NCBI GenBank assembly: GCA_002269645.1
Contig: NIVC01003258.1
Location: forward strand, 44,974 to 108,973
Origin: Macrostomum lignano
Lineage: Eukaryota
DNA: 64,000 nucleotides
Direction: 5' to 3'
This document shows positions 19,475-64,000 of the stretch, piece by piece. Below the pieces are notes generated by a model. The model was given only the letters and a program-made list of their open reading frames with translations, did no database searches and was not told the DNA's origin. Position numbers and translations under genes: made by a program. Position 1 is the stretch's first letter; every line of letters begins with the position of its first letter.

Positions 19475-28211
<8,737 letters not shown>

Positions 28212-28758
28212 AATATGTGAATTTTCTTAGAGCATGCAATGGTAACAATAAATTTAACAATAAATAAACAACTTATGTCTTATTTGATGGGTTGTTTTTC
28301 TACTTTTTGGCACTTTATTTCATAGCTATTTGAAGAATTCTTTATTTTATAATTGACATTGTGTTTTGCTAGGCCTAAAAAGCAGTTTGTATTATATAGT
28401 GTGGGAGTTGCTTATTTCTTAAATTATTTTTGTAGTGCAGTTAATGATAGTTGTAGTTGTAGTTTAAACTGTGTTGCAAAGTGAACTAATTCATCAAAAA
28501 TGATGATGTATCTCATCAAAGATACATGATTGACAACATCAAAGGCCAAAGCATATAAAAAGTTTTGCATATGACATTTTAGTGTCACAAAAAGGAAGCT
28601 ATTATACATTTTAAAATATGTAAAGTATTATTATAAATATATGAAATCAGTACATATAAGATGTAATTACTAATTTATACATTGTAATTGTATTGCATTT
28701 GTGGTAATATTACAAGATATAAAGGGCAACTGATTGCTAAAAAATATTGAACCTATTA

Positions 28759-37690: not shown

Positions 37691-40600
37691 TTCGTCTGTA
37701 CCCTCTCCTGTCTCTTGTCTCCTCTCTTCTCTCATATCTCTCAGTTTCAACGCTGAGTTACTATTCAAGGAGGAGTTGTCGAAATGACAGACAGACACAC
37801 AGACAGACAGACAAACAACGCGTCAACTTTAGTATATACGAGTGGAACTCCTCCTCTGGAGGAGAAATGGAAGAACTCCCATCACCGGAATTCTGAAGGG
37901 GAAGAACTCCCATCACCGGAATTCTGAAGGGGAAGAACTCCTATCAGCTGAAATTCAATGAATTGAATCCCATCTTCCAAATCATCTCCAAATCCTCTAC
38001 AATCTATCAACTCCCATCTCTCAACTCTTGCGGCCTGCGCTCTGATTTTTATTTTTACTCTCTTCTTTCTCCTCACTAATTACTTCTCTCTGCACTTTTA
38101 TCTCTCTCATCTCTATCTTCCATCTCTCTTCTCCCTCCTCTCTCCCCTGCTCTCTCATCCCTCATCTCCTCATCTCACTCTTTCTTTCTCCTCTACTCTC
38201 CCTCTCTTCTATTGCCTCTGTACGCTCTTATCCCTCATTTATTCTCTCTCCTATCATCTCCAATCTGTCATGTCTAATCTCTCCACTCAATTATACTCTG
38301 TTTTCTATCATCTCTTCTCTCTTCTCTTCTCAGTCTTCTCTTTACTCTCTTCTCTGACTGATTGAAGATGCCAAATCCATCAAGATCCTCTCTGCGAAGC
38401 AAAAATCCTGTCTGTGCAACTAAAAACCATCGAAATCCTCTCAGTGAAACTGGACTCCTTCGAAATCCTCTCCTTGAAACTTAAATCCATCAAAATTGTT
38501 TCCATAAAACAGAAATCAATCATAAATTATCTCCGCGAAACAGAAAGCCTCTCCGTGAAGCTGAACATGATCGAAATCCTCTCCGTGAAACTGAACACCA
38601 TGGAAATCCTTTCGTGAAACTGAACATCATCGAAATCCTCTCCACGAAACAGAAATCTTCTCCGTCAGAATTTAAACATTGAAATCGTCTCCGCTAAACT
38701 TGACTTAATCGAATTTTTTCCGTCAAACAACTCAACTCGCCAGATTCATTAGGGTTAGGGTTAGGGTTAGGGTTAGGGTTAGAACTACGCACAGCTTCGT
38801 GTTAAAAGGCACTGATAAAAATATTGAATTAATTGAATCAAATCATTGCGCAACCGATTTCACAGTCAGTCAGTATCAGTCTCAGTTAAAGTTAACAAAA
38901 ACATTGCGCAATCTAAATCAACCCTCCAATACACAGCAGCAGTGAGAAGTTGAACCCTCCCCCAACTTTATCTATTACGTCTCGCAAAACTGAGTACAAT
39001 TTTTGCAGAAAGTTAAAAGTATGGAAATAGTTTTTTAAATGCGGTGCTTTTTCTTTTCATATTTAAAGCAAACAACTTATATCCCTAAACTCAGCGTTGC
39101 AAGATCTTTCCAGCAATATAAGTCTCTCCTCTCAAAGTTTAAAACTCAAGGATCAGTTAGCGTTTGAAATTTACCGATTTCCTGACTGCTTGCCTGTGAG
39201 GCTCGCAATTTTGTACATTGAATTTCACTGCCAAGCTAATACACAGGGCCGATAATAAAAAAGCTAACCAATTGAATCAATTGATTGCGCAATATATTTC
39301 TGTGTTAGTCAGTATAAGTCTCAGTTAAAGTTAACACAAAGTTTGCGCAATCTAATCAACCCTCCAATACAAAGCAACTGACCCCTTCCTATACACAGCG
39401 CCAGTTAGAAGTCGAAACCCCCAACTTTATCTCTCACCTCTCGCCAAAATGAGTACAATCTTTGCAGAAAGTTTAAAGTATGGAAATAGTTTTTGCAATG
39501 CAGAGCTTTTAGTTTTCATATTTGAAGCAAACAATTTATATCCCTGAAATCAGCTTTGCAAGTTCTTTCCAGCAATATAAATTTTTTCTCTCAAAGTTAA
39601 AAACTCGAGCAACAGTTTGCGTTTGAAACTTTCTGATTTAAAGCATTGAAATATCGATTGTACGTTCACTGCCTGCTAAAGAGGCCCGCAAGTTTATGCA
39701 TTGAATTTCAAGGTTCAACAAAATCACAGGGCTGCCTATTGAAAATTAGAACACAAATCTTTGCGCAATTGTCTATACAGTCAGCCAGTGAGCCAGGGTC
39801 CGATTGTACACAGGCAGCCATTTAGAACGCCCCATCCCCCCACTGGAGAGAAAATACACTGCAGAGATAGGGAAAAGTTGTGGCGCAATCACTTGAAATT
39901 CATGCAAATTTTCAGCTCCAAGCAGAAAGAGGGTACAATTAAGATTATCAAAGGTCAAGACCGCCGTTTTCTGCTTTTTTGAGGATCTTAGAAATTAAAA
40001 TTTCAGAATTAAAATAGCCTATAGCCGACCTCGGATAATTTCCAATCTTCCCATATAAGTTTCAACGCTGAGTTGCCACTATTCAAGGAGGAGTTGTCGA
40101 AATGACACACACACACACAGACAGACAGACAAACAACACGTCAACTTTAGTATATATAGAAGTGGAACTCCTCCTTCGGAGGAGAAAGGGGAAGAACTCC
40201 CATCACCGGAATTCCATTCCCTGAAATCCATCAGCTGAAACTCCATGACTTGAATCCCATCTTCCAAATCGTCTCCAAATTCTTTACAAAACCTTTGAAA
40301 GACCATAGCTCAAAGACTCTTACGTCTCTCATATCTCCTCTCTCCTCTCTTCGCTATTATCGTGACTCTCTTCTCTCTCCTCTCTCTCATCTCATCTCTA
40401 CCCCTACTCCCTTATTTATATCTTCTCCCTGGTCTTTCGTCTCTACTCTCTCCTGTCTCATTTCTCCCCTCTTTTCTCCTCTCTTCTCTCTCCCCTCTCC
40501 TCCCTCATCTCTCATCCTTCATCTCACTCTTTCTTTCTTCTCTACTCTCCCCTCTCATCTATTTCCCCTGTACGCTCTTATCCCTCATCTCTATTCTCTC

Positions 40601-46600: not shown

Positions 46601-49600
46601 GTTAGGGTTATTGTTAGGGTTAGGGTTAGGGTTAAAGCTACACAGCTGCGTGTTCAAATAAAAATTGAACCAATTGAATCAATTGATTGCGCAACCGATT
46701 TCTCAGTCAGTCAGTATCAGTCTCAGTTAAAGTTAACAAAAAGATTGCGCAATCTAAATCAACCCTCCAGTACACAGAGACCGACCCTTTTCAATACGCA
46801 GTAGCAGTTAGAAATTGAAGCCAATCTTTGCATAAAGCAAAAAATGGAGTTTTTTTGATGCTGCTCTTTTATCTTTACATTTAAGCAAACAATATATCCT
46901 CGAACTCAGTTTTTTTCAGTTCTCTTTTTAGCATTAGCTTTTAGCGAAAGGCATTGAAATATCGCGTGTACGTTCACATTGAAAGATCGCAAATTTATTC
47001 ATTCATTAACAGGCTCTATTACACAGCCTATTGAAAGGCACAGATAATAAAACAAATTGATGGCGCAACCGATTTCACAGTCAGTCAGTATCAGTCTCAG
47101 TTAAAGTTAAGAAAAACATTGCGCAATCTAAACCCTCCAATACACAGCGCCCGACCGCCTTCCACTACGCAGTGGCAATTAGCAATTGAACCCCCCAAAT
47201 TTATCTCTGACCTATCGCAAAAATAAGTACAATCTTTGCAGCAAGTTAAAAGTAAAAGTAATAAAATCGTTTTTTGAATGCTGTGCTTTTAATTTTTACA
47301 GTTAAAGCAAACAACTTATATCCCTGAACTCAGCGTTGCAAGATCTTTCCAGCAATATAAGTCTCTCCTCTCAAAGTTCAAAAATCGAGCAACAGTTAGC
47401 ATTTGAAACTTTCTGATTTAAAGCATTGAAATATCGAGTGTACGTTCACTGCCTGCTAGAGAGCTCGCAAATTATGCATTGAATTTCACTGTCCGCCAGT
47501 TAGCTATCCAAGTGTACACACGCCGCCACTGAGAACGCTCCTATCCAAAAAAAACAATTAAGTTAAAAAAAATTTTCAATTTTTCAAAGCTTCAATTTAG
47601 AAAAAAAAATTATAGATCTTAGCCAATCTTCCATAATAAGTTTCCCTATAAGTTTTGGCACTATTCAAGGAGGAGTTGTCGAAATGACAGACAGACAGAC
47701 AGACAAACAACGCGTCAACTTTAGTATATATAGACGAGTGGAACTCCTCCTTCGGAGGAGAAAGGGGAAGAACTCCCATCACCGGAATTCCATTCCCTGA
47801 AATCCATCAGCTGAAATTCCATGTCTTGAACCCTATCTTCCAGATCGTCTCCAAACTCTTTACAAAACCTTTCAAAGACCATAGCTCAAAGACTCTCACG
47901 TCTCTCATATCTCCTCTCTCTTCTATTCGCTATTATCGTGACTCTCTTCTCTCTCCTCTCTCTCATCTCATCTCTGCCCCTACTCCCTTATTAATCTCTC
48001 CACTCATTTCTACTCTGTTTTCTATCATCTCATCTCTCTTCTCTTTTCATTCTTCTCTTTACTCTCTTCTCTGACTGATTGAAGATGCCAAATCCATCAA
48101 GATCCTCTCCGCGAAGCAGAAATCCTGTCCGTGCAACTGAAAACCATCGAAATCCTCTCCGTGAAACTGGACTCCTTCGAAATCCTCTCATTGAAACTTA
48201 AATTCATCAAAATCGTCTCCATAAAACAGAAATCAATCATTAATTATCTCCGCGAAACAGAAATCCTCTCCGTGAAGCTGAACATCATCGAAATCCTCTC
48301 CGTGAAACTGAACACCATCGAAATCCTCTCCACGAAACAGAAATCCTCTCCGTCAAATTAAAACATTGAAATCGTCTCCGCTAAACTGGACTCAATCGAA
48401 TTTCTTTGCCGTCAAACAACTCAACTCTCCGGATTCATTGGTTAGGGTTAGGGTTAGGGTTAGGGTTAGAACTGCGCACAGCTTCGTGTTAAAAGGCACT
48501 GATAAAAATATTGAACTAATTGAATCAATTCATTGCGCAACCGATTTCACAGTCAGTCAGTATCAGCCTCAGGTAAAGTTAAGAAAAACATTGCGCAATC
48601 TAAATCAACCCTCCAATACACAGCAGCAGTGAGAAGTTGAACTCTCCCCCCAACTTTATCTATTACGTCTCGCAAAACTGAGTACAATTTTTGCAGAAAG
48701 TTAAAAGTATGGAAATAGTTTTTTCAATGCTGTGCTTTTTCTTTTCATATTTAAAGCAAACAATTTATATCCCTGAAATCAGCTTTGCAAGTTCTTTCCA
48801 GCAATATTAATTTTTTCTCTCAAAGTTAAAAACTCGAGCAACAGTTTGCGTTTGAAACTTTCTGATTTAAAGCATTGAAATATCAATTGTACGTTCACTG
48901 CCTGCTAAAGAGGCCCGCAAGTTTATGCATTGAATTTCAAGGTTCAACAAAATCACAGGGCTGCCTATTGAAAATTAGAACACAAATCTTTGCGCAATTG
49001 TCTATACAGTCAGCCAGTGAGCCAGGGTCCGATTGTACACAGGCAGCCATTTAGAACGCCCCATCCCCCACTGGAGAGAAAATACACTGCAGAGATAGGG
49101 AAAAGTTGTGGCGCAATCACTTGAAATTCATGCAAATTTTCAGCTCCAAGCAGAAAGAGGGTACAATTAAGATTATCAAAGGTCAAGACCGCCGTTTTCT
49201 GCTTTTTTGAGGATCTTAGAAATTAAAATTTCAGAATTAAAATAGCCTATAGCCGACCTCGGATAATTTCCAATCTTCCCATATAAGTTTCAACGCTGAG
49301 TTGGCACTATTCAAGGAGGAGTTGTCGAAATGACAGACACACAGAGACATACAGACAAAACAACGCGTCAACTTTAGTATATACGAGTGGAACTCCTCCT
49401 TCGGAGGAGAAAGGGGAAGAACTCCCATTACCGGAATTCCATTCCCTGAAATATCCATCAACTGAAATTCCATGTCTTGAACCCTATCTTCCAGATCGTC
49501 TCCAAACTCTTTACAAAACCTTTCAAAGACCATAGCTCAAAGACTCTCACGTCTCTCATATCTCCTCTCTCTTCTATTCGCTATTATCGTGACTCTCTTC

Positions 49601-52600
49601 TCTCTCCTCTCTCTCATCTCATCTCTGCCCCTACTCCCTTATTAATCTCTCCACTCATTTCTACTCTGTTTTCTATCATCTCATCTCTCTTCTCTTTTCA
49701 TTCTTCTCTTTACTCTCTCTCTGACTGATTGAAGATGCCAAATCCATCAAGATCCTCTCCGCGAAGCAGAAATCCTGTCCGTGCAACTGAAAACCATCGA
49801 AATCCTCTCCGTGAAACTGGACTCCTTCGAAATCCTCTCATTGAAACTTAAATTCATCAAAATCGTCTCCATAAAACAGAAATCAATCATAAATTATCTC
49901 CGCGAAACAGAAATCCTCTCCGTGAAGCTGAACATCATCGAAATCCTCTCCGTGAAACTGAACACCATCGAAATCCTCTCCACGAAACAGAAATCCTCTC
50001 CGTCAAAATTAAAACATTGAAATCGTCTCCGCTAAACTGGACTCAATCGAATTTTTTTGCCGTCAAACAACTCAACTCTCCGGATTCATTGGTTAGGGTT
50101 AGGGTTAGGGTTAGGGTTAGAACTGCGCACAGCTTCGTGTTAAAAGGCACTGATAAAAATATTGAACTAATTGAATCAATTCATTGCGCAACCGATTTCA
50201 CAGTCAGTCAGTATCAGCCTCAGGTAAAGTTAAGAAAAACATTGCGCAGTCTAAATCAACCCTCCAATACACAGCAGCAGTGAGAAGTTGAACTCTCCCC
50301 CCAACTTTATCTATTACGTCTCGCAAAACTGAGTACAATTTTTGCAGAAAGTTAAAAGTATGGAAATAGTTTTTTCAATGCTGTGCTTTTTCTTTTCATA
50401 TTTAAAGCAAACAATTTATATCCCTGAAATCAGCTTTGCAAGTTCTTTCCAGCAATATTAATTTTTTCTCTCAAAGTTAAAAACTCGAGCAACAGTTTGC
50501 GTTTGAAACTTTCTGATTTAAAGCATTGAAATATCAATTGTACGTTCACTGCCTGCTAAAGAGGCCCGCAAGTTTATGCATTGAATTTCAAGGTTCAACA
50601 AAATCACAGGGCTGCCTATTGAAAATTAGAACACAAATCTTTGCGCAACTGTCTATGCAGTCAGCCAGTGAGCCAGGGTCCGATTGTACACAGGCAGCCA
50701 TTTAGAACGCCCCATCCCCCCACTGGAGAGAAAATACACTGCAGAGATAGGGAAAAGTTGTGGCGCAATCACTTGAAATTCATGCAAATTTTCAGCTCCA
50801 AGCAGAAAGAGGGGACAATTAAGATTATCAAAGGTCAAGACCGCCGTTTTCTGCTTCTTTGAGGATCTTAGAAATTAAAATTTCAGAATTAAAATAGCCT
50901 ATAGCCGACCTCGGATAATTTCCAATCTTCCCATATAAGTTTCAACGCTGAGTTGGCACTATTCAAGGAGGAGTTGTCGAAATGACAGACACACAGACAG
51001 ACAGACAGACAAACAACACGTCAACTTTAGTATATAAACTCCTCCTTCGGAGGAGAAAGGGGAAGAACTCCCATCACCGGAATTCCATTCCCTGAAATCC
51101 ATCAGCTGAAACTCCACTTGAATCCCAACTTCCAAATCGTCTCCAAATTCTTTACAAAATCTTTGAAAGACCATAGCTCAAAGACTCTCACGTCTCTCAT
51201 ATCTCCTCTCTCTTCTATTCGCTATTATCGTGACTCTCTTCTCTCTCCTCTCTCTCATCTCATCTCTACCCGTACTCCCTTATTTATGTTTTATCCCTCG
51301 TCTTTCGTCTGTACCCTCTCCTGTCTCTTGTCTCCTCTCTTCTCTCATATCTCTCCTCTTCACTTCTGTCTCCTGTCTTCTCTCTTCTCTCTTATCTCTC
51401 CCTCTTCTCTCCTCTTTTATATGTCATCCCTATTCACTTATCTATCGTCTCTCTTAACCCTCTCTCTCTTCTCTTTTCTTTCCTCTCTGCTCTCATTTCT
51501 CATATCTCATATACGCTCTCACACTCCACTTACTTGTCTCCAATCTTTCTTTCCTCCTTTCCACTTTTCCCTGTCTCTTCTCTTCTCTCTTTTCTATCCT
51601 CTCCATTCTCTCTTTTCTCCTCCCCTTGCTCCTTTTATCTTCTCCCTCTCTTCTCTAATCTCTTCTCTCTTCTCTCTTATGTTCTCACTCATCTCTTATC
51701 ATCGCATCTCTCATCTCTCCTCTCCTCACTACTTTCCTCTCTTAACTCTCTTATCTATTTCATCTCTCTCCTCTCTCCTCTTTCTCTTCTCCTCTCGCTT
51801 CTTCTCTCGCTTCTCTCTCCTATCTCTCCTCTCATCTCTACTACCGTATTTATATCTTCTAACTGGTCCTTCGTCTCTACTCTCTCCTTTCTCCTTTCTC
51901 CCCTCTTTTCTCCTTTCTTGTCTCTCCTGTCTCCCCTCCTCTCTCATCCCTCATCCCCTCATCTCACTCTTTCTTTCTCCTCTACTCTCCCCTCTCTTCT
52001 ATTTTCTCTGTACGCTCTTATCCCTAATCTATTTTCTCTCCTCTCTCCTCTTTTCTTCTCTCTCCCTCTTCGTTCCCGCCTAAATCCCCTCTTCTCTCCA
52101 ATCTGTCATGTCTAATATCTCCACTTATTTCTACTCTGTTTTCTATCATCTCATCTCTCTTCTGCTTTCATTCTTCTCTTTACTCTTTTCTCTGACTGAT
52201 TGAAGATGCCAAATCCATCAAGATCCTCTCCGCGAAGCAGAAATCCTGTCCGTGCAACTGAAAACCATCAAAATCCTCTCCGTGAAACTGGACTCCTTCG
52301 AAATCCTTTCCGTGAAACTGAAAACCATCGAAATTCTCTCTTTTAAACTGGACTCAATCGAAATTTTCTCCGTCAAAAAAAATAAATATCAGGATTCATT
52401 GGTTAGGGTTATTGTTAGGGTTAGGGTTAGGGTTAAAGCTACACACAGCTGCGTGTTCAAATAAAAAATTGAACCAATTGAATCAATTGATTGCGCAACC
52501 GATTTCTCAGTCAGTCAGTATCAGTCTCAGTTAAAGTTAAGAAAAACATTGCGCAATCTAAATCAACCCTCCAATACACAGCAGCAGTGAGAAGTTGAAC

Positions 52601-55600
52601 TCTCCCCCCAACTTTATATATTACGTCTCGCAAAACTGAGTACAATTTTTGCAGAAAGTTAAAAGTATGGAAATAGTTTTTTCAATGCTGTGCTTTTTCT
52701 TTTCATATTTAAAGCAAACAATTTATATCCCTGAAATCAGCTTTGCAAGTTCTTTCGAGCAATATTAATTTTTTCTCTCAAAGTTAAAAACTCGAGCAAC
52801 AGTTTGCGTTTGAAACTTTCTGATTTAAAGCATTGAAATATCAATTGTACGTTCACTGCCTGCTAAAGAGGCCCGCAAGTTTATGCATTGAATTTCAAGG
52901 TTCAACAAAACACAGGGCTGCCTATTGAAAATGAGAACACAAATCTTTGCGCAATTGTCTATAAAGTCAGCCGGTGAGCCAGGGTCCGATTGTACACATG
53001 CAGCCATTTAGAACGCCCCATCCCCCACTGGAGAGAAAATACACTGCCAAGGTAGCAAAATTTTATGGCGCAATCACTTAAAATTCATGCAAATTTTCAG
53101 CTCCGAGCAGAAAGAGGGGACAATAAATTATCAAAGTCAAGATTCGAGTTTTCTGCTTTTTTGAGGATCTTAGAAATTAAAATTTCAGAATTAAAATAGC
53201 CTATAGCCGACCTCGGATAATTTCCAATCTTCCCATATAAGTTTCAACGCTGAGTTGCCACTATTCAAGGAGGAGTTGTCGAAATGACACACACACACAC
53301 AGACAGACAAACAACACGTCAACTTTAGTATATACGAGTGGAACTCCTCCTTCGGAGGAGAAAGGGGAAGAACTCCCATCACCGGAATTCTATTCCCTGA
53401 AATATCCATCAACTGAAATTCCATGTCTTTAACCCTATCTTCCAAATCGTCTCCAAATTCTTTACAAAATCTTTCAAAGACCATAGCTCAAAGACTCTCA
53501 AGTCTCTCATATCTCCTCTCTCCTCTCTCTCATCTCATCTCTACCCCTGCTCCCTTATTTATCTCTTCTCCCTCGTCTTTCGTCTGTACCTTCTCCTGTC
53601 TTCTGTCTCCTCTCTTCACTCTTATCTCTCCCTCTTCTCTCCTCTCTCATATGTCATCTCTACTCACTTATCTATCGTCTCTCTTAATCCTCTCTCTCTC
53701 TTCTCTTTTCTCTTCTCTCTGCTCTCATTTCTCATATTTCATATACGCTCTGACACTACTTTCTTGTCTCCCATCTTTCTTCCTCCTTTTCACTATCCCC
53801 TGTCTCTTCTCTTCTCTCTTTTCTATTCTCTCCATTCTCTCTTTTCTCCTTTCCTTGCTCCTTTCATCTCTCTCCTCTCTCCTCACTCTCTTCTCCTTTC
53901 GCTTCTCTCTCCTCTCTCTCCTCTCATCTTTACTACCTTATTTATATCTTCTCCCTAGTCTTTCGTCTGTAGTCTCTCCTGTCTCCTCTCTCCCTCCTCT
54001 CTCATCCCTCATCTCCTCATCTCACTCTTTCTTTCTCCTCTACTCTCCCCTCTCTTCTATTGCCTCTGTACGCTCTTATCCCTCATCTATTCTCTCTCCT
54101 ATCATCTCCAATCTGTCATGTCTAATCTCTCCACTCAATTATACTCTGTTTTCTATCATCTCTTCTCTCTTCTCTTTTCAGTCTTCTCTTTACTCTCTTC
54201 TCTGACTGATTGAAGATGCCAAATCCATCAAGATCCTCTCCGCGAAGCAAAAATCCTGTCTGTGCAACTAAAAACCATCGAAATCCTCTCAGTGAAACTG
54301 GACTCCTTCGAAATCCTCTCCTTGAAACCTGAATCCATCAAAATTGTTTCCATAAACAGAAATCAATCATAAATTATCTCCGCGAAACAGAAATCCTCTC
54401 CGTGAAGCTGAACATGATCGAAATCCTCTCCGTGAAACTGAACACCATGGAAATCCTTTCGTGAAACTGAACATCATCGAAATCCTCTCCACGAAACAGA
54501 ATTCTTCTCCGTCAGAATTTAAACATTGAAATCGTCTCCGCTAAACTTGACTTAATCGAATTGTTTCCGTCAAACAACTCAACTCGCCAGATTCATTAGG
54601 GTTAGGGTTAGGGTTAGGGTTAGGGTTAGAACTACGCACAGCTTCGTGTTAAAAGGCACAGATAAAAATATTGAACTAATTGAATCAATTCATTGCGCAA
54701 CCGATTTCACAGTCAGTCAGTATCAGCCTCAGGTAAAGTTAACAAAAACATTGCGCAATCTAAATCAACCCTCCAATACACAGCAGCAGTGAGAAGTTGA
54801 ACCCTCCCCCCAACTTTATCTATTACGTCTTGCAAAACTGAGTACAATATTTGCAAAAAGTTAAAAGTATGGAAATAGTTTTTCAAATGCTGTGCTTTTT
54901 CTTTTCATATTTAAAGCAAACAACTTATATCCCGAACTCAGCGTTGCAAGATCTTGCCAGCAATATAAGTTTCTCCTCTCAAAGTTTAAAACTCGAGGAA
55001 CAGTTAGCGTTTGAAACTGTCTGATTTATAGCATTGAAGTATCGAGTGTACGTTCACTGCCTGCTTGCAAGTTGATGCATTGAATTTCAATGTCCAACAA
55101 ATACACAGGACTGCCCATTGAAAGGCAGGAAAACTTATCAGTAGCCATATCATTGCGCAATTATCTTACAGTCAGCCAGTGAGCCAGGGTCCAAGTGTAC
55201 ACACGCAGCCACTGAGAACGCTCCCACCCCCCACTGGAGAGAAAATACAGTACAGAGATAGGGAAAAGTTGTGGCGCAATCACAAAAATTCATGCATTTT
55301 TCAGCTCCAAGCAGAAAGAGGGGACAATTAAGATTATCAAAGGTCAAGATTCAAGTTTTCTGCTTTTTTGAGGATCTTAGAAATTAAAATTTCAGAATTA
55401 AAATAGCCTATAGCCGACCTCGGATAATTTCCAATCTTCCCATATAAGTTTCAACGCTGAGTTGGCACTATTCAAGGGGGAGTTGTCGAAATGACACACA
55501 CACACACACAGACAGACAAACAACACGTCAACTTTAGTATATAGAGTGGAACTCCTCCTTCGGAGGAGAAAGGGGAAGAACTCCCATCACCGGAATTCTA

Positions 55601-58600
55601 TTCCCTGAAATATCCATCAACTGAAATTCCATGTCTTGAACCCTATCTTCCAAATCGTCTCCAAATTCTTTAGAAAACCTTTCAAAGACCATAGCTCAAA
55701 GACTCTCACGTCTCTCATATCTACTCTCTCCACTCTGTGCTATTATCGTGACTCTCTTCTCTCTCCTCTCTCTCATCTCATCTCTACCCGTACTCCCTTA
55801 TTTATGTTTTCTCCCTCGTCTTTCGTCTGTACCCTCTCCTGTCTCTTGTCTCCTCTCTTCTCTCATATCTCTCCTCTTCACTTCTGTCTCCTGTCTTCTC
55901 TCTTCTCTCTTATCTCTCCCTCTTCTCTCCTCTTTTATATGTCATCCCTATTCACTTATCTATCGTCTCTCTTAACCCTCTCTCTCTTCTCTTTTCTTTC
56001 CTCTCTGCTCTCATTTCTCATATCTCATATACGCTCTCACACTCCACTTACTTGTCTCCAATCTTTCTTTCCTCCTTTCCACTTTTCCCTGTCTCTTCTC
56101 TTCTCTCTTTTCTATCCTCTCCATTCTCTCTTTTCTCCTCCCCTTGCTCCTTTTATCTTCTCCCCTCTCTTCTCTAATCTCTTCTCTCTTCTCTCTTATG
56201 TTCTCACTCATCTCTTATCATCGCATCTCTCATCTCTCCTCTCCTCACTACTTTCCTCTCTTAACTCTCTTATCTATTTCATCTCTCTCCTCTCTCCTCT
56301 TTCTCTTCTCCTCTCGCTTCTTCTCTCGCTTCTCTCTCCTATCTCTCCTCTCATCTCTACTACCGTATTTATATCTTCTAACTGGTCCTTCGTCTCTACT
56401 CTCTCCTTTCTCCTTTCTCCCCTCTTTTCTCCTTTCTTGTCTCTCCTGTCTCCCCTCCTCTCTCATCCCTCATCCCCTCATCTCACTCTTTCTTTCTCCT
56501 CTACTCTCCCCTCTCTTCTATTTTCTCTGTACGCTCTTATCCCTAATCTATTTTCTCTCCTCTCTCCTCTTTTCTTCTCTCTCCCTCTTCGTTCCCGCCT
56601 AAATCCCCTCTTCTCTCCAATCTGTCATGTCTAATATCTCCACTTATTTCTACTCTGTTTTCTATCATCTCATCTCTCTTCTGCTTTCATTCTTCTCTTT
56701 ACTCTTTTCTCTGACTGATTGAAGATGCCAAATCCATCAAGATCCTCTCCGCGAAGCAGAAATCCTGTCCGTGCAACTGAAAACCATCGAAATCCTCTCC
56801 GTGAAACTGGACTCCTTCGAAATCCTTTCCGTGAAACTGAAAACCATCGAAATTCTCTCTTTTAAACTGGACTCAATCGAAATTTTCTCCGTCAAAAAAA
56901 ATAAATATCAGGATTCATTGGTTAGGGTTATTGTTAGGGTTAGGGTTAGGGTTAAAGCTACACACAGCTGCGTGTTCAAATAAAAATTGAACCAATTGAA
57001 TCAATTGATTGCGCAACCGATTTCTCAGTCAGTCAGTATCAGTCTCAGTTAAAGTTAACAAAAAGATTGCGCAATCTAAATCAACCCTCCAGTACACAGA
57101 GACCGACCTCTTTTCAATACGCAGTAGCAGTTAGAAATTGAACGCCGAACTGTTGGGGGCATTGAACCAAAAAATGAGTACAATCTTTGCATAAAGCTAA
57201 AAGTATGGAAATAGTTTTTTTGATGCTGCTCTTTTAGTCTTTATATTTATAGCAAACAATTTATATCCTCGAACTCAGCGTTGCAAGATCTTTTCAGCAG
57301 TATAAGTATCTTCTCTTAAAGTTTAGAACTCGAAGAGCAGTTAGCGTTTGAAAGTTCCCGTTTTAAGGCATTGAAATATCGCGTGTACGTTCACTGCCTG
57401 CCAAAGAGGCTCGCAAATTTATTCATTCATTACACAGGCTGGCTATTACACAGGGCAGCCTATTGAAAGGCACAGATAATAAAACAAATTGATGGCGCAA
57501 CCGATTTCACAGTCAGTCAGTATCAGTCTCAGTTAAAGTTAACAAAAACATTGCGCAATCTAAATCAACCCTCCAATACACAGCAGCAGTAAGAAGTTGA
57601 ACCCTCCCCCAAACTTTATCTATTACGTCTCGCAAAACTGAGTACAATTTTTGCAGAAAGTTAAAAGTATGGAAATAGTTTTTTCAATGCTGTGCTTTTT
57701 CTTTTCATATTTAAAGCAAACAATTTATATCCCTGAAATCAGCTTTGCAAGTTCTTTCCAGCAATATTAATTTTTTCTCTCAAAGTTAAAAACTCGAGCA
57801 ACAGTTAGCGTTTGAAACTTTCTGATTTAAAGCATTGAAATATCAATTGTACGTTCACTGCCTGCTAAAGAGGCCCGCAAGTTTATGCATTGAATTTCAA
57901 GGTTCAACAAAATCACAGGGCTGCCTATTGAAAATTAGAACACAAAAATCTTTGCGCAATTGTCTATAAAGTCAGCCGGTGAGCCAGGGTCCGATTGTAC
58001 ACATGCAGCCATTTAGAACGCCCCATCCCCCCACTGGAGAGAAAATACACTGCCAAGGTAGCAAAATTTTATGGCGCAATCACTTAAAATTCATGCAAAT
58101 TTTCAGCTCCGAGCAGAAAGAGGGGACAATTAAGATTATCAAAGGTCAAGACCGCCGTTTTCTGCTTTTTTGAGGATCTTAGAAATTAAAATTTCAGAAT
58201 TAAAATAGCCTATAGCCGACCTCGGATAATTTCCAATCTTCCCATATAAGTTTCAACGCTGAGTTGGCACTATTCAAGGAGGAGTTGTCGAAATGACAGA
58301 CACACAGACAGACAGACAGACAGACAAACAACACGTCAACTTTAGTATATAAGTGGAACTCCTCCTTCGGAGGAGAAAGGGGAAGAACTCCATCACCGGA
58401 ATTCCATTCCCTGAAATATCCATCAACTGAAATTCCATGTCTTGAACCCTATCTTCCAAATCGTCTCCAAATTCTTTAGAAAAACTTTCAAAGACCATAG
58501 CTCAAAGACTCTCACGTCTCTTATATCTACTCTCTCCACTCTGTGCTATTATCGTGACTCTCTTCTCTCTCCTCTCTCTCATCTCATCTCTACCCGTACT

Positions 58601-61600
58601 CCCTTATTTATGTTTTCTCCCTCGTCTTTCGTCTGTACCCTCTCCTGTCTCTTGTCTCATCTCTTCTCTCATATCTCTCCTCTTCACTTCTGTCTCCTGT
58701 CTTCTCTCTTCTCTCTTATCTCTCCCTCTTCTCTCCTCTTTTATATGTCATCCCTATTCACTTATCTAACGTCTCTCTTAACCCTCTCTCTCTTCTCTTT
58801 TCTTTCCTCTCTGCTCTATTTCTCATATCTCATATACGCTCTCACACTCCACTTACTTGTCTCCAATCTTTCTTTCCTCCTTTCCACTTTTCCCTGTCTC
58901 TTCTCTTCTCTCTTTTCTATCCTCTCCATTCTCTCTTTTCTCCTCCCCTTGCTCCTTTTATCTTCTCCCCTCTCTTCTCTAATCTCTTCTCTCTTATGTT
59001 CTCACTCATCTCTTATCATCGCATCTCTCATCTCTCCTCTCCTCACTACTTTCCTCTCTTAACTCTCTTATCTATTTCATCTCTCTCCTCTCTCCTCTTT
59101 CTCTTCTCCTCTCGCTTCTTCTCTCGCTTCTCTCTCCTATCTCTCCTCTCATCTCTACTACCGTATTTATATCTTCTAACTGGTCCTTCGTCTCTACTCT
59201 CTCCTTTCTCCTTTCTCCCCTCTTTTCTCCTTTCTTGTCTCTCCTGTCTCCCCTCCTCTCTCATCCCTCATCCCCTCATCTCACTCTTTCTTTCTTCTCT
59301 ACTCTCCCCTCTCTTCTATTTTCTCTGTACGCTCTTATCCCTAATCTATTTTCTCTCCTCTCTCCTCTTTTCTTCTCTCTCCCTCTTCGTTCCCGCCTAA
59401 ATCCCCTCTTCTCTCCAATCTGTCATGTCTAATATCTCCACTTATTTCTACTCTGTTTTCTATCATCTCATCTCTCTTCTGCTTTCATTCTTCTCTTTAC
59501 TCTTTTCTCTGACTGATTGAAGATGCCAAATCCATCAAGATCCTCTCCGCGAAGCAGAAATCCTGTCCGTGCAACTGAAAACCATCGAAATCCTCTCCGT
59601 GAAACTGGACTCCTTCGAAATCCTTTCCGTGAAACTGAAAACCATCGAAATTCTCTCTTTTAAACTGGACTCAATCGAAATTTTCTCCGTCAAAAAAAAT
59701 AAATATCAGGATTCATTGGTTAGGGTTTTTGTTAGGGTTAGGGTTAGGGTTAAAGCTACACACAGCTGCGTGTTCAAATAAAAATTGAACCAATTGAATC
59801 AATTGATTGCGCAACCGATTTCTAGTCAGTCAGTATCAGTCTCAGTTAAAGTTTACAAAAGATTGCGCAATCTAAATCAACCCTCCAGTACACAGAGACC
59901 GACCTCTTTTCAATACGCAGTAGCAGTTAGAAATTGAACGCCGAACTGTTGGGGGCATTGAACCAAAAAATGAGTACAATCTTTGCATAAAGCTAAAAGT
60001 ATGGAAATAGTTTTTTTGATGCTGCTCTTTTAGTCTTTATATTTATAGCAAACAATTTATATCCTCGAACTCAGCGTTGCAAGATCTTTTCAGCAGGATA
60101 AGTATCTTCTCTTAAAGTTTAGAACTCGAAGAGCAGTTAGCGTTTGAAAGTTCCCGTTTTAAGGCATTGAAATATCGAGTGTACGTTCACTGCCTGCCAA
60201 AGAGGCTCGCAAATTTATTCATTCATTACACAGGCTGGCTATTACACAGGGCAGCCTATTGAAAGGCACAGATAATAAAACAAATTGATGGCGCAACCGA
60301 TTTCACAGTCAGTCAGTATCAGTCTCAGTTAAAGTTAACAAAAACATTGCGCAATCTAAATCAACCCTCCAATACACAGCAGCAGTAAGAAGTTGAACCC
60401 TCCCCCAAACTTTATCTATTACGTCTCGCAAAACTGAGTACAATTTTTGCAGAAAGTTAAAAGTATGGAAATAGTTTTTTCAATGCTGTGCTTTTTCTTT
60501 TCATATTTAAAGCAAACAATTTATATCCCTGAAATCAGCTTTGCAAGTTCTTTCCAGCAATATTAATTTTTTCTCTCAAAGTTAAAAACTCGAGCAACAG
60601 TTAGCGTTTTGAAACTTTCTGATTTAAAGCATTGAAATATCGATTGTACGTTCACTGCCTGCTAAAGAGGCCCGCAAGTTTATGCATTGAATTTCAAGGT
60701 TCAACAAAATCACAGGGCTGCCTATTGAAAATTAGAACACAAATCTTTGCGCAATTGTCTATAAAGTCAGCCGGTGAGCCAGGGTCCGATTGTACACATG
60801 CAGCCATTTAGAACGCCCATCCCCCACTGGAGAGAAAATACACTGCCAAGGTAGCAAAATTTTATGGCGCAATCACTTAAAATTCATGCAAATTTTCAGC
60901 TCCGAGCAGAAAGAGGGGACAATTAAGATTATCAAAGGTCAAGATTCAAGTTTTCTGCTTTTTTGAGGATCTTAGAAATTAAAATTTCAGAATTAAAATA
61001 GCCTATAGCCGACCTCGGATAATTTCCAATCTTCCCATATAAGTTTCAACGCTGAGTTGCCACTATTCAAGGAGGAGTTGTCGAAATGACAGACAGACAG
61101 ACAAACAACGCGTCAACTTTAGTATATATAGATAGAGTGGAACTCCTCCTTCGGAGGAGAAAGGGGAAGAACTCCCATCACCGGAATTCTATTCCCTGAA
61201 ATATCCATCAACTGAAATTCCATGTCTTTAACCCTATCTTCCAAATCGTCTCCAAATTCTTTACAAAATCTTTCAAAGACCATAGCTCAAAGACTCTCAA
61301 GTCTCTCATATCTCCTCTCTCCTCTCTCTCATCTCATCTCTACCCATGCTCCCTTATTTATCTCTTCTCCCTCGTCTTTCGTCTGTACCTTCTCCTGTCT
61401 TCTGTCTCCTCTCTTCACTCTTATCTCTCCCTCTTCTCTCCTCTCTCATATGTCATCTCTACTCACTTATCTATCGTCTCTCTTAACCCTCTCTCTCTCT
61501 TCTCTTTTCTCTTCTCTCTGCTCTCATTTCTCATATTTCATATACGCTCTGACACTACTTTCTTGTCTCCCATCTTTCTTCCTCCTTTTCACTATCCCCT

Positions 61601-63311
61601 GTCTCTTCTCTTCTCTCTTTTCTATTCTCTCCATTCTCTCTTTTCTCCTTTCCTTGCTCCTTTCATCTCTCTCCTCTCTCCTCACTCTCTTCTCCTTTCG
61701 CTTCTCTCTCCTCTCTCTCCTCTCATCTTTACTACCTTATTTATATCTTCTCCCTAGTCTTTCGTCTGTAGTCTCTCCTGTCTCCTCTCTCCCCTCCTCT
61801 CTCATCCCTCATCTCCTCATCTCACTCTTTCTTTCTCCTCTACTCTCCCCTCTCTTATATTGCCTCTGTACGCTCTTATCCCTCATCTATTCTCTCTCCT
61901 ATCATCTCCAATCTGTCATGTCTAATCTCTCCACTCAATTATACTCTGTTTTCTATCATCTCTTCTCTCTTCTCTTTTCAGTCTTCTCTTTACTCTCTTC
62001 TCTGACTGATTGAAGATGCCAAATCCATCAAGATCCTCTCCGCGAAGCAAAAATCCTGTCTGTGCAACTAAAAACCATCGAAATCCTCTCAGTGAAACTG
62101 GACTCCTTCGAAATCCTCTCCTTGAAACTTAAATCCATCAAAATTGTTTCCATAAAACAGAAATCAATCATAAATTATCTCCGCGAAACAGAAAGCCTCT
62201 CCGTGAAGCTGAACATGATCGAAATCCTCTCCGTGAAACTGAACACCATGGAAATCCTTTCGTGAAACTGAACATCATCGAAATCCTCTCCACGAAACAG
62301 AAATCTTCTCCGTCAGAATTTAAACATTGAAATCGTCTCCGCTAAACTTGACTTAATCGAATTTTTTCCGTCAAACAACTCAACTCGCCAGATTCATTAG
62401 GGTTAGGGTTAGGGTTAGGGTTAGGGTTAGAACTACGCACAGCTTCGTGTTAAAAGGCACAGATAAAAATATTGAACTAATTGAATCAATTCATTGCGCA
62501 ACCGATTTCACAGTCAGTCAGTATCAGCCTCAGGTAAAGTTAACAAAAACATTGCGCAATCTAAATCGACCCTCCAATACACAGCAGCAGTGAGAAGTTG
62601 AACCCTCCCCCCAACAATCTTTGCAGATTAAAGTACAATCTTTGCAGAAAGTTAAAGCTGTGCTTTTTCTTTTCATATTTAAAGCAAACAACTTATATCC
62701 CCGAACTCAGCGTTGCAAGATCTTGCCAGCAATATAAGTTTCTCCTCTCAAAGTTTAAAACTCGAGGAACAGTTAGCGTTTGAAACTGTCTGATTTATAG
62801 CATTGAAGTATCGAGTGTACGTTCACTGCCTGCTTGAAAGTTGATGCATTGAATTTCAATGTCCAACAAATACACAGGACTGCCCATTGAAAGGCAGGAA
62901 AACTTATCAGTAGCCATATCATTGCGCAATTATCTATAAAGTCAGCCAGTGAGCCAGGGTCCAAGTGTACACACGCAGCCACTGAGAACGCTCCCACCCC
63001 CACTGGAAAGAAAATACACTACAGAGATAGGGAAAAGTTGTGGCGCAATCACTAAAAATTCATGCATTTTTCAGCTCCAAGCAGAAAGAGGGGACAATTA
63101 AGATTATTAAAGGTCAAGACCGCCGTTTTCTGCTTTTTTGAGGATCTTAGAAATTAAAATTTCAGAATTAAAATAGCCTATAGCCGACCTCGGATAATTT
63201 CCAATCTTCCCATATAAGTTTCAACGCTGAGTTGCCACTATTCAAGGAGGAGTTGTCGAAATGACACACACACACACAGACAGACAAAACAACACGTCAA
63301 ATTTAGATATC

Positions 63312-63316
<5 letters not shown>
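37691..63316 (-). mobile_element. Head-to-tail tandem array of a non-autonomous Helitron-like element (11 complete units of about 1.65-2.8 kb plus 1 partial)
   Basis: On the minus strand each unit starts with TCTATATATACTAAAG or a shortened variant, then a (TGTC)n/(TG)n microsatellite, then ACAACTCCTCC...TATAGGCTATTTT. It ends with a hairpin CTCCTCC-GAA-GGAGGAG, followed in the best-preserved junctions by TTCCACTCG. Hairpins (+ coordinates) start at 37848, 40168, 42631, 45302, 47744, 49393, 51039, 53344, 55552, 58359 and 61143. The last 5' end at about 63316 abuts a (GATA)n tract and has no hairpin beyond it. Confidence 0.75.
38749..62430 (+). repeat. Eleven short interstitial telomere-type (TTAGGG)4-5 tracts, one per array unit
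   Basis: Tracts start at about 38749, 41182, 43884, 46602, 48442, 50093, 52403, 54596, 56922, 59720 and 62397. Confidence 0.95.
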
Positions 63317-63356
<40 letters not shown>

Positions 63357-63385
63357 GAAGATAGATAGAGATAGATAGATAGAGA
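63313..63385. repeat. (GATA)n microsatellite
   Basis: Direct reading. Confidence 0.95.
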
Positions 63386-64000
63386 TGGCACCACTTTTAG
63401 TATTAAGATTGCATCACACCTCGGCCCCCATGTACGCCACCCCCGTCGTCCATCCATCGGTTACCTTCCCCTTAAATGTACGTTCAACCCCCCCCCCTTC
63501 TCTTAACTATGCAAATCAATGAAATCGGCTTATCAGCTATTTGGGCTCGCGCACGGGCACTCTAGCTCCATCCCTCTCTCGGTAACTACAAACTTCAATT
63601 AAGCGTTTTCAACTCTACTTTATTTGCCACTAAAAGTCACAACAGTACGAGTATCTGGTTTGCAATATCTTACTTTGTAACAGGTGCGCTTTACTTCTGG
63701 ATTGAACATACTTTTCGGTTAAGTATCATTTGAAGCTTTGAAAAGTATTAATGGAGAGAGCTAGGCAAAGCTCAGCATATAAATTTCCCAATGTTTTGTC
63801 TTTTTGCTACGCTAAAAAGGTTTTTCGACAAAATGTAGAGGAATTCGGTTCAGAAAATTAAAAAAAATTACAGCCAGGAAACTTAGGAACAGTTTTGCCT
63901 GCTTGCCGTCTCCAGCATTTCAGTAAAAGTAGATAAGTCAACTTTAATAAAATTCTTCAAAAAGCATTATCTTCCTTTTTTGCAACTAAAAGACCGGGAC

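What the first reader, a model, noticed from the sequence alone, without database searches (positions are those of the whole stretch)
38749..62430. Every complete array unit carries a fixed (TTAGGG)4-5 telomeric cassette
Seen: exactly one tract per unit at a constant position. There are two main alleles: pure (CATTAGGG...TTAGAACTACGC) and interrupted (TTAGGGTTATTGTTAGGG...TTAAAGCTAC). Established: TTAGGG is the flatworm and ancestral metazoan telomere repeat, four TTAGGG units can fold one G-quadruplex, and duplex TTAGGG binds TRF-type proteins. Inference: a mobile element is seeding regularly spaced interstitial telomere/G4 sites. These could recruit shelterin heterochromatin, target subtelomeres or act as telomere-healing seeds. 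The length stays close to the minimal G4 size in all 11 copies.
Basis: partly seen in the sequence, partly recalled or inferred. Interest (0 to 1): 0.72.

Follow-up and report, generated by a model that had tools for sequence, protein, structure and literature searches.

The report
Helitron chains carrying short telomere repeats
The short telomere-type repeats sit inside rolling-circle jumping elements (Helitrons) that likely build chains by landing on each other's front ends; across the genome the repeats run from one to seven units and some complete copies lack them, so they are likely passengers rather than fixed four-stranded-DNA or telomere seeds.

Summary
The 11 tracts are real, one per unit. 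They are not fixed: 6 of 11 are pure 4-5-mers, 5 are interrupted 3+1, and they lie 883-1406 nt from the unit's 5' end. The units are non-autonomous Helitrons on the minus strand. They share both ends with RepHel-coding members elsewhere in the genome, none of which (0 of 7) has a tract. Among 132 sampled tracts the pure run is 1-7 units and 65 fit a canonical G4. Complete tract-less copies exist. Sampled loci show no subtelomeric sign. The array is a mosaic of unlike neighbours. 522 of 690 3' ends genome-wide abut a Helitron-type 5' head, so chains likely grow by insertion at resident heads. Against a pure-passenger reading: tracts are purer than their flanks, and a second Helitron-like family carries its own tract in the opposite orientation (579 copies). 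The scan noted this family before on other DNA of this genome (e1-9513720). Verdict: Helitron cargo microsatellite; the head-targeting is the more interesting feature.

The parts
37838..63315 (-). Head-to-tail chain of 11 complete non-autonomous Helitron units of several subfamilies
61133..63315 (-). Unit 1 (5'-most), tract 62397-62426 (5 pure), hairpin 61143-61159
   Evidence: 97.8% match in C2383
58349..61130 (-). Unit 2, interrupted tract 59720-59749, hairpin 58359-58375
   Evidence: 97.3% match in C70
55542..58353 (-). Unit 3, interrupted tract 56922-56951, hairpin 55552-55568
   Evidence: 99.1% match in C70
53334..55545 (-). Unit 4, tract 54596-54625 (5 pure), hairpin 53344-53360
   Evidence: 99.3% match in C2383
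51029..53336 (-). Unit 5, interrupted tract 52403-52432, hairpin 51039-51055 with the last bases of the 3' end missing
49383..51038 (-). Unit 6, tract 50093-50116 (4 pure), hairpin 49393-49409
   Evidence: 98.9% like unit 7
47734..49385 (-). Unit 7, tract 48442-48465 (4 pure), hairpin 47744-47760
45292..47732 (-). Unit 8, interrupted tract 46602-46631, hairpin 45302-45318
42621..45288 (-). Unit 9, tract 43884-43907 (4 pure), hairpin 42631-42647
40158..42623 (-). Unit 10, interrupted tract 41182-41211, hairpin 40168-40184
37838..40158 (-). Unit 11, tract 38749-38778 (5 pure), hairpin 37848-37864
   Evidence: 99.5% match in C108
37691..37837 (-). 5' head of a twelfth unit, cut off by the N gap at 36968-37690
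63312..63389 (-). Run of TC/TCTA pieces in front of the chain's head; likely leftovers of repeated insertion into heads, extended by slippage
63387..63408 (-). Head-only fragment (about 22 nt) of a family element in front of the run

Best explanation
The array is a chain of non-autonomous Helitrons that likely grew by repeated insertion at or a few bases inside the 5' head of resident Helitrons, and the telomere-type tract is likely an inherited short microsatellite that is copied along. Shown: each unit has a TC-type 5' head and a 7-bp hairpin about 10 nt before a CTCG 3' end. RepHel-coding members share these ends. Neighbouring units are unlike each other, and 3' ends abut heads. The tract varies from 1 to 7 units and is absent from RepHel members and from some complete short copies. 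Inferred: RepHel supplied in trans mobilises the units and picks targets that resemble its own 5' end, so each new copy lands in front of an older one in the same orientation and leaves TC/TCC/TCTA pieces upstream. Inferred: the tract entered one founder, possibly from the 5' non-coding region of one RepHel lineage, and has since changed by slippage, which would also keep it pure.
For: RepHel: Helitron_like_N E 2e-52, PIF1 E 6e-33; match to Helraiser 7lcc_A E 1.6e-44 with HUH and two-tyrosine motifs aligned; 7 of 137 units hold these exons between the same ends. Mosaic: 5 of 93 adjacent pairs are at least 95% alike; the best match lies in the same contig for 14 of 130 units; 5 of 11 window units have a match of 97% or more in another contig. 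Targeting: 522 of 690 3' ends are followed within 14 nt by a head motif, reversed control 0. Of 137 sampled ends, 110 are followed by a family head; of 26 others examined, 23 are followed by the start of another dispersed repeat. In C257, C247 and C6 the two flanks join to the intact head or junction of the second family, without a duplication. Leftover length rises with chain length (rho 0.51, p 0.011, 24 of 24 heads). Tract: runs 1:5, 2:17, 3:48, 4:35, 5:23, 6:3, 7:1 of 132; it varies from 3 to 7 inside one subfamily. Complete tract-less units of 389-1959 nt occur in five contigs (C20, C40, C175, C219, C251), plus two in C43. A decayed four-unit version lies about 370 nt before the RepHel start codon in C1 and C413.
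Against: The tract is purer than its flanks: 18 differences in 637 nt (2.8%) against 7.9-19% in flanking blocks, in 24 of 26 cluster representatives (two with a different flank were dropped; the measures are not identical). 127 of 132 tracts keep at least two units although representative flanks average 77% identity. A second Helitron-like family has an unrelated-flank tract in the other orientation, and a tract-less 1-kb subfamily has a reversed two-unit version near its 3' end. Repeated gain hints at selection or an insertion bias. The predicted age gradient along chains was not seen (rho -0.10, p 0.31, n 108). The insertion site is often C|T or G|T, not the canonical A|T, and the 3' end is not CTRR. 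The 132-tract sample was reached through the cassette and over-represents tract-bearing units.
Confidence: 0.7

Rival explanations
1. The tract is a selected cis site of the non-autonomous elements. Two or more duplex repeats would bind a host TRF/telobox-type protein that insulates the element, helps it replicate or shields it from silencing; G4 size is irrelevant.
For: Purity above flanks; floor of two units in 127 of 132; independent tracts in a second family in the opposite orientation, 579 copies, and a reversed two-unit version in a 1-kb subfamily. The review PMC6410037 (passages) reports TRF1/TRF2 on a subset of short human ITSs.
Against: Absent from 7 of 7 RepHel members, two of which (C32, C2383) are 100% identical in four exon peptides and so recently copied. 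Absent from complete dispersed short copies. Decayed in the C1/C413 lineage. Slippage purifies microsatellites and stalls at two units (established knowledge, recalled). The same review says binding depends on ITS length.
Confidence: 0.17
2. One reading: the element seeds G4-sized telomeric sites that recruit shelterin heterochromatin, target subtelomeres or seed telomere healing, and selection holds the length near four units.
For: All 11 window tracts have four G-runs if a 9-nt loop is allowed; 77 of 132 sampled tracts do. Helitrons at chromosome ends are described in Paramecium (PMC13085455), Hydractinia (PMC11934779) and D. biarmipes (10.1101/445429); passages read.
Against: 55 of 132 tracts fail even the loose G4 pattern; 1 of 24 fits in a large subfamily. 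Copies lie deep inside megabase contigs in both orientations, and none of 6 held contig ends has a telomere array. The target is a Helitron head, not telomeric DNA.
Confidence: 0.05
3. The array is a rolling-circle concatemer or satellite of one donor, later diversified in place, so one tract per unit is a trivial result of local amplification.
For: Tandem Helitron arrays are usually read this way (PMC11934779, PMC5876387, passages). Units 2/3 and 6/7 are adjacent and 97-99% alike. No age gradient.
Against: Only 5 of 93 adjacent pairs are near-identical, best matches are mostly in other contigs, chains mix subfamilies, RepHel members and other families, and many junctions cut into the downstream head.
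Confidence: 0.08

Closest known systems
Canonical Helitrons (Helibat1/Helraiser; PMC4778049, PMC5876387, passages)
   Same: RepHel with HUH, two tyrosines and Pif1-type helicase in coding members; TC-type 5' end; hairpin about 10 nt before the 3' end; insertion before T without duplication; head-to-tail junctions.
   Different: 3' end is CTCG, not CTRR; the base 5' of the insertion is often C or G; targets are overwhelmingly Helitron heads, whereas Helraiser prefers AT in AT-rich DNA, most strongly 3' of the site.
Adjacent or self-inserted Helitrons: maize r1 pair (PMC2267711), FoHeli4 inserted 2 bp from another's 5' end and multiple 5' termini in Fusarium (PMC5148889); passages
   Same: Unlike elements joined head to tail by consecutive insertion, G|T junctions, short duplicated heads.
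   Different: Those are single cases. Here it is the rule (522 of 690 ends), crosses family lines, builds chains of 11 or more units and leaves a leftover run that scales with chain length.
Non-autonomous Helitrons/Helentrons with mini- and microsatellite cargo (Xenopus Heli2Xen; DINE/HINE as cited in PMC12001565, passages)
   Same: Non-coding units built of a 5' microsatellite, internal sub-repeats and minisatellites of variable length.
   Different: The cargo includes the host's telomere repeat; the word 'telomer' has 0 occurrences in that paper.
Telomere-targeted Helitrons of Paramecium (PMC13085455, passages) and subtelomeric Helitron-like repeats of Hydractinia (PMC11934779, passages)
   Same: Helitrons associated with telomeric repeats.
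   Different: In Paramecium the repeats flank the element as its target and orientation at ends is absolute. Here the repeats are internal and sampled copies show no end or orientation bias.
Short interstitial telomeric sequences (s-ITS; PMC6410037, passages)
   Same: 2-25 hexamers at internal sites; spread by mobile elements is a proposed origin.
   Different: Here the carrier is identified and at least about 1300 anchored tracts (717 + 579) belong to two element families.

Membership tests
Canonical Helitron (Helitron1/HLE1) | RepHel transposase (HUH-Y2 Rep plus Pif1-type helicase) in members that share the termini | tested here: met
   7 of 137 units; HUH and tyrosine motifs align with Helraiser. 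The window units themselves are non-coding derivatives.
Canonical Helitron (Helitron1/HLE1) | 5' terminal TC | tested here: met
   Intact heads begin with TC in solo and precise junctions; many heads in chains have lost the first 2-4 bases.
Canonical Helitron (Helitron1/HLE1) | GC-rich hairpin about 10-15 nt before the 3' end | tested here: met
   7-bp stem in all 11 window units, present in MFE and centroid folds (z of the 60-nt piece only -1.3).
Canonical Helitron (Helitron1/HLE1) | 3' terminal CTRR | tested here: not met
   The end is CTCG, often shortened by 1-4 nt.
Canonical Helitron (Helitron1/HLE1) | Insertion between A and T without target duplication | tested here: inconclusive
   T on the 3' side in 26 of 26 intact non-family junctions, and no duplication in the flank joins of C257, C247, C6. 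The 5' base was C, C and G there, so strict A|T is not kept.
Helentron / Helitron2 (HLE2) | Subterminal inverted repeats and insertion into TT | not tested
   No search for subterminal inverted repeats was run; the TC head and the Helraiser-like Rep point to the canonical group.
Telomere-targeted Helitrons (Paramecium type) | Telomeric repeats flank both ends; fixed orientation at chromosome ends | tested here: not met
   Tract is internal; flanks are Helitron heads; orientation toward nearer contig end in 13 of 33.
Minimal telomeric G4 cassette | Four G3 runs with loops up to 7 nt kept in all copies | tested here: not met
   6 of 11 in the window, 65 of 132 sampled.
Shelterin-bound interstitial telomeric site | Binding of TRF/POT1-type proteins, heterochromatin, TERRA-like RNA | not testable with these tools
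   TRF profile search found nothing and its control rang nowhere; no run on record as RNA.

The most novel reading that the evidence does not exclude
Helitrons of this genome home on each other's 5' heads across family lines, and several non-autonomous lineages have independently gained telomere repeats, in either orientation, as a selected docking site for host telomere proteins that protects or replicates the parasite: a transposon that borrows telomere identity without going to telomeres.
Probability: 0.13. Interest if true: 0.78.

Novelty: new variant of a known kind. Interest (0 to 1): 0.42.

Why it matters
It names a carrier for over a thousand short interstitial telomere-type tracts in one animal genome, a route that reviews only propose. 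It also gives genome-wide numbers for a Helitron target rule (landing at Helitron 5' heads) that I found in print only as single cases. That rule would explain mosaic tandem arrays without rolling-circle concatemers and can be tested with a RepHel assay. If the tract proved functional, it would be a case of a transposon using telomere proteins; present evidence favours a passenger.

Tried and rejected
Expression: no RNA holder listed; four runs laid were contigs with RNA status a guess or unknown; nothing concluded. TRF domain search in the genome: no match, control silent, uninformative. Rfam: 0 matches in 37700-64000. Fold of the tract regions: no unusual duplex-type structure (z 0.68 and -0.03; the program run does not model G4). 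Age gradient along chains: not seen. The leftover run as an exact insertion counter: rejected, since the window run (73 nt) exceeds the truncated heads and some solo copies have 13-17 nt. A crude search for hairpin plus CTAG within 3.3 kb downstream printed none; one search then found such ends in 6 of 12 downstream elements with a motif search. A genome-wide map of true telomere arrays against family copies was not obtained, so subtelomeric bias rests on contig positions only. The Helraiser structure paper was not held, so I cannot say whether it already describes targets resembling the 5' end. Literature searches listed no paper whose title or abstract start describes telomere repeats carried inside non-autonomous Helitrons; only listings and passages were seen, supplements were not opened, and subscription papers and Repbase are not covered. 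Sequence look-up among earlier findings returned nothing.

Full report
Observation. The window holds 11 runs of two or more TTAGGG units, all on the + strand between 38749 and 62426. Three-unit matches number 20 against 0 in 100 shuffles. Segmenting the array gives 11 complete units of 1652-2812 nt with one tract each, plus the head of a twelfth cut by an N gap. Six tracts are pure 4-5-mers and five are 3+1 interrupted. The tract lies 883-1406 nt from the 5' end and 738-1416 nt from the 3' end, always between an internal sub-repeat and a 20/30-bp minisatellite. So 'one per unit' holds; 'fixed 4-5' and 'constant position' do not.

What the units are. Read on the minus strand, each unit starts with a TC-type AT-rich head followed by a short microsatellite and ends with a 7-bp hairpin about 10 nt before CTCG. 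The window is the end of contig C3258 of G000, and close copies lie on many contigs. Helitron_like_N matches lie near several of them. In 31 fetched regions plus the window I segmented 137 units. Seven hold RepHel exons between the same ends, with Pfam Helitron_like_N, PIF1 and Pif1_2B matches and a match to Helraiser at E 1.6e-44 that aligns the HUH and two-tyrosine motifs. The window units are therefore non-autonomous derivatives of a Helitron family with a non-standard 3' tetranucleotide. The host's identity was not established; long arrays of the repeat at the start of C139, in telomere orientation, show that it is the host's likely telomere repeat.

The tract across the genome. A flank-anchored pattern finds 717 cassettes (390 forward, 327 reverse); the first 100 listed lie on 41 contigs and hold 1 to 7 pure units by my reading of the list. 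In the segmented set, 132 tracts were scored in 130 units under 7 kb: pure runs 1:5, 2:17, 3:48, 4:35, 5:23, 6:3, 7:1. Of these, 65 fit a G4 with loops up to 7 nt and 77 with loops up to 12. Within one subfamily the run ranges from 3 to 7; in a 24-member cluster (mainly 1.2-kb units) it is 2-4 and only one fits a G4. None of the seven RepHel members has a run of two. This sample was reached through the cassette, and one of the 130 'units' was really three elements, two of them tract-less. I therefore fetched 20 regions around 3' ends that were not in the cassette list. Of 23 ends there, 6 had a tract with variant flanks, 5 were complete head-to-tail units of 389-1959 nt without it, and 12 had no recognisable head or shared only the terminus. 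The tract is common but not required for a complete, dispersed copy.

Results against a pure passenger. In 24 of 26 cluster representatives the tract differs from a perfect repeat at 2.8% of positions, while flanking blocks differ from their majority at 7.9-19% (the two measures are not identical, and two representatives with a different flank were dropped). 127 of 132 tracts keep two units or more. A second Helitron-like family, with an A|TC head, hairpin plus CTAG end and its own head-to-tail junctions in 12 of 30 sampled heads, carries a longer tract in the opposite orientation. Its flanks show no similarity to family 1 beyond the repeat; it has 579 anchored copies, and the 42-unit internal array of C29 has its flank. 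A tract-less 1-kb subfamily of family 1 has a reversed two-unit version near its 3' end. Slippage explains purity and a floor of two units (recalled knowledge), but repeated gain needs either an insertion bias, such as telomerase-type patching of breaks, or selection. On origin: one RepHel lineage (C1, C413, and a deletion derivative in C1) has a decayed four-unit version with the same downstream word about 370 nt before its start codon, and a unit in C211 joins that upstream flank to a four-unit tract. The tract may thus descend from, or recombine with, that 5' region; other RepHel lineages lack it.

Subtelomeres. Of 33 loci on 31 contigs, 17 are over 100 kb from the nearer contig end and 9 under 25 kb; the G-strand points to the nearer end in 13; none of 6 held contig ends next to arrays has a run above 5 units. 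Contig ends are not chromosome ends, so this is absence of support, not a chromosome-level test.

How the chain forms. Neighbours are unlike: 5 of 93 adjacent pairs reach 95% identity (1.9% of cross-contig pairs do), and the best match lies in the same contig for 14 of 130 units (single-alignment identity, a strict measure). Genome-wide, 522 of 690 exact 3' ends are followed within 14 nt by a head motif, with a reversed control of 0. In the sample, 110 of 137 ends abut a family head. Of the other 27, one is broken; of the 26 examined, 23 abut the start of another dispersed repeat and 3 abut AT-rich sequence found once in the sample. Many junctions cut 2-4 bases into the downstream head, and the missing piece is found in front of the new element: in C257 and C247 the flanks join to the intact head of the second family, in C6 to its precise junction, with no duplication. 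The run of such pieces before a chain grows with chain length (rho 0.51, p 0.011 for 24 of 24 heads; 0.64 for 18 after dropping 6 with misassigned or fragment heads). The window has such a run at 63312-63389 and a head-only fragment beside it. I infer that RepHel selects targets resembling its own 5' end. The expected age gradient was not detected, which counts against simple one-ended growth or reflects recombination among units.

Comparison with print. I read passages, not whole texts, of PMC4778049, PMC5876387, PMC13286980, PMC2267711, PMC5148889, PMC12001565, PMC13085455, PMC11934779, 10.1101/445429 (22), PMC9071541 and PMC6410037; no supplements were opened. Head-to-tail Helitrons by consecutive insertion are described as single cases in maize and Fusarium; satellite cargo in non-autonomous Helitrons is well known; Paramecium Helitrons insert into telomeric repeats rather than carry them. 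My nine searches listed no paper describing internal telomere repeats in Helitrons. The scan had already noted this family on other DNA of this genome (e1-9513720) and stacking on 5' ends in another genome (e1-7176507).

Verdict. A real feature with a mostly ordinary cause: a variable microsatellite inside a Helitron family. The G4-size, subtelomere and healing ideas are not supported. What lifts it above routine is the near-obligate head-targeting and the second family with an independent tract.

Noticed in passing
G000 genome-wide; e.g. L115, L117, L045 (C29), downstream of units in C38, C102, C257, C326: A second Helitron-like family (1697 exact heads, hairpin plus CTAG end) carries its own telomere-type tract, G-rich on the element strand, about 27-134 nt between anchors in the 100 listed of 579 copies and up to 42 pure units in C29.
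   Followed up: partly
window 37838-63315, one or two copies per unit: A block of about 70 nt with TTGCGCAA palindromes (39 in the array against 1 in the first 37 kb) is shared by both families and by RepHel members near both ends. It resembles C/EBP or PAR-bZIP sites (label recalled) and is a better candidate cis element than the tract.
   Followed up: partly
window 63312-63408: TC/TCTA run plus a 22-nt head-only fragment in front of the chain; similar head fragments precede chains in C1, C32, C135, suggesting frequent abortive 5' insertions.
   Followed up: partly
window 35663-36397 (+): ORF with a THAP domain (PF05485, E 3e-13), probably a fragment of a P-element-type transposase (label recalled), just left of the N gap.
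   Followed up: no
window 27615-28226 (-): A 204-aa open frame ending at a start codon that looked to me like a first exon of glutamate-cysteine ligase (recalled impression); Pfam gave no match.
   Followed up: no
window 1-27400: Dense succession of unrelated mini- and microsatellites of 4-91 bp period.
   Followed up: no
L038 (G000:C1829, about 53600-57400): Long ORFs (477 and 819 aa) inside a RepHel member look like an inserted non-LTR retrotransposon (label from reading, untested).
   Followed up: no
L139, L146, L148 (C18, C70, C177): An otherwise unrelated repeat shares only the last 17 nt of the family's 3' end and is followed by the same downstream sequence in three contigs.
   Followed up: no
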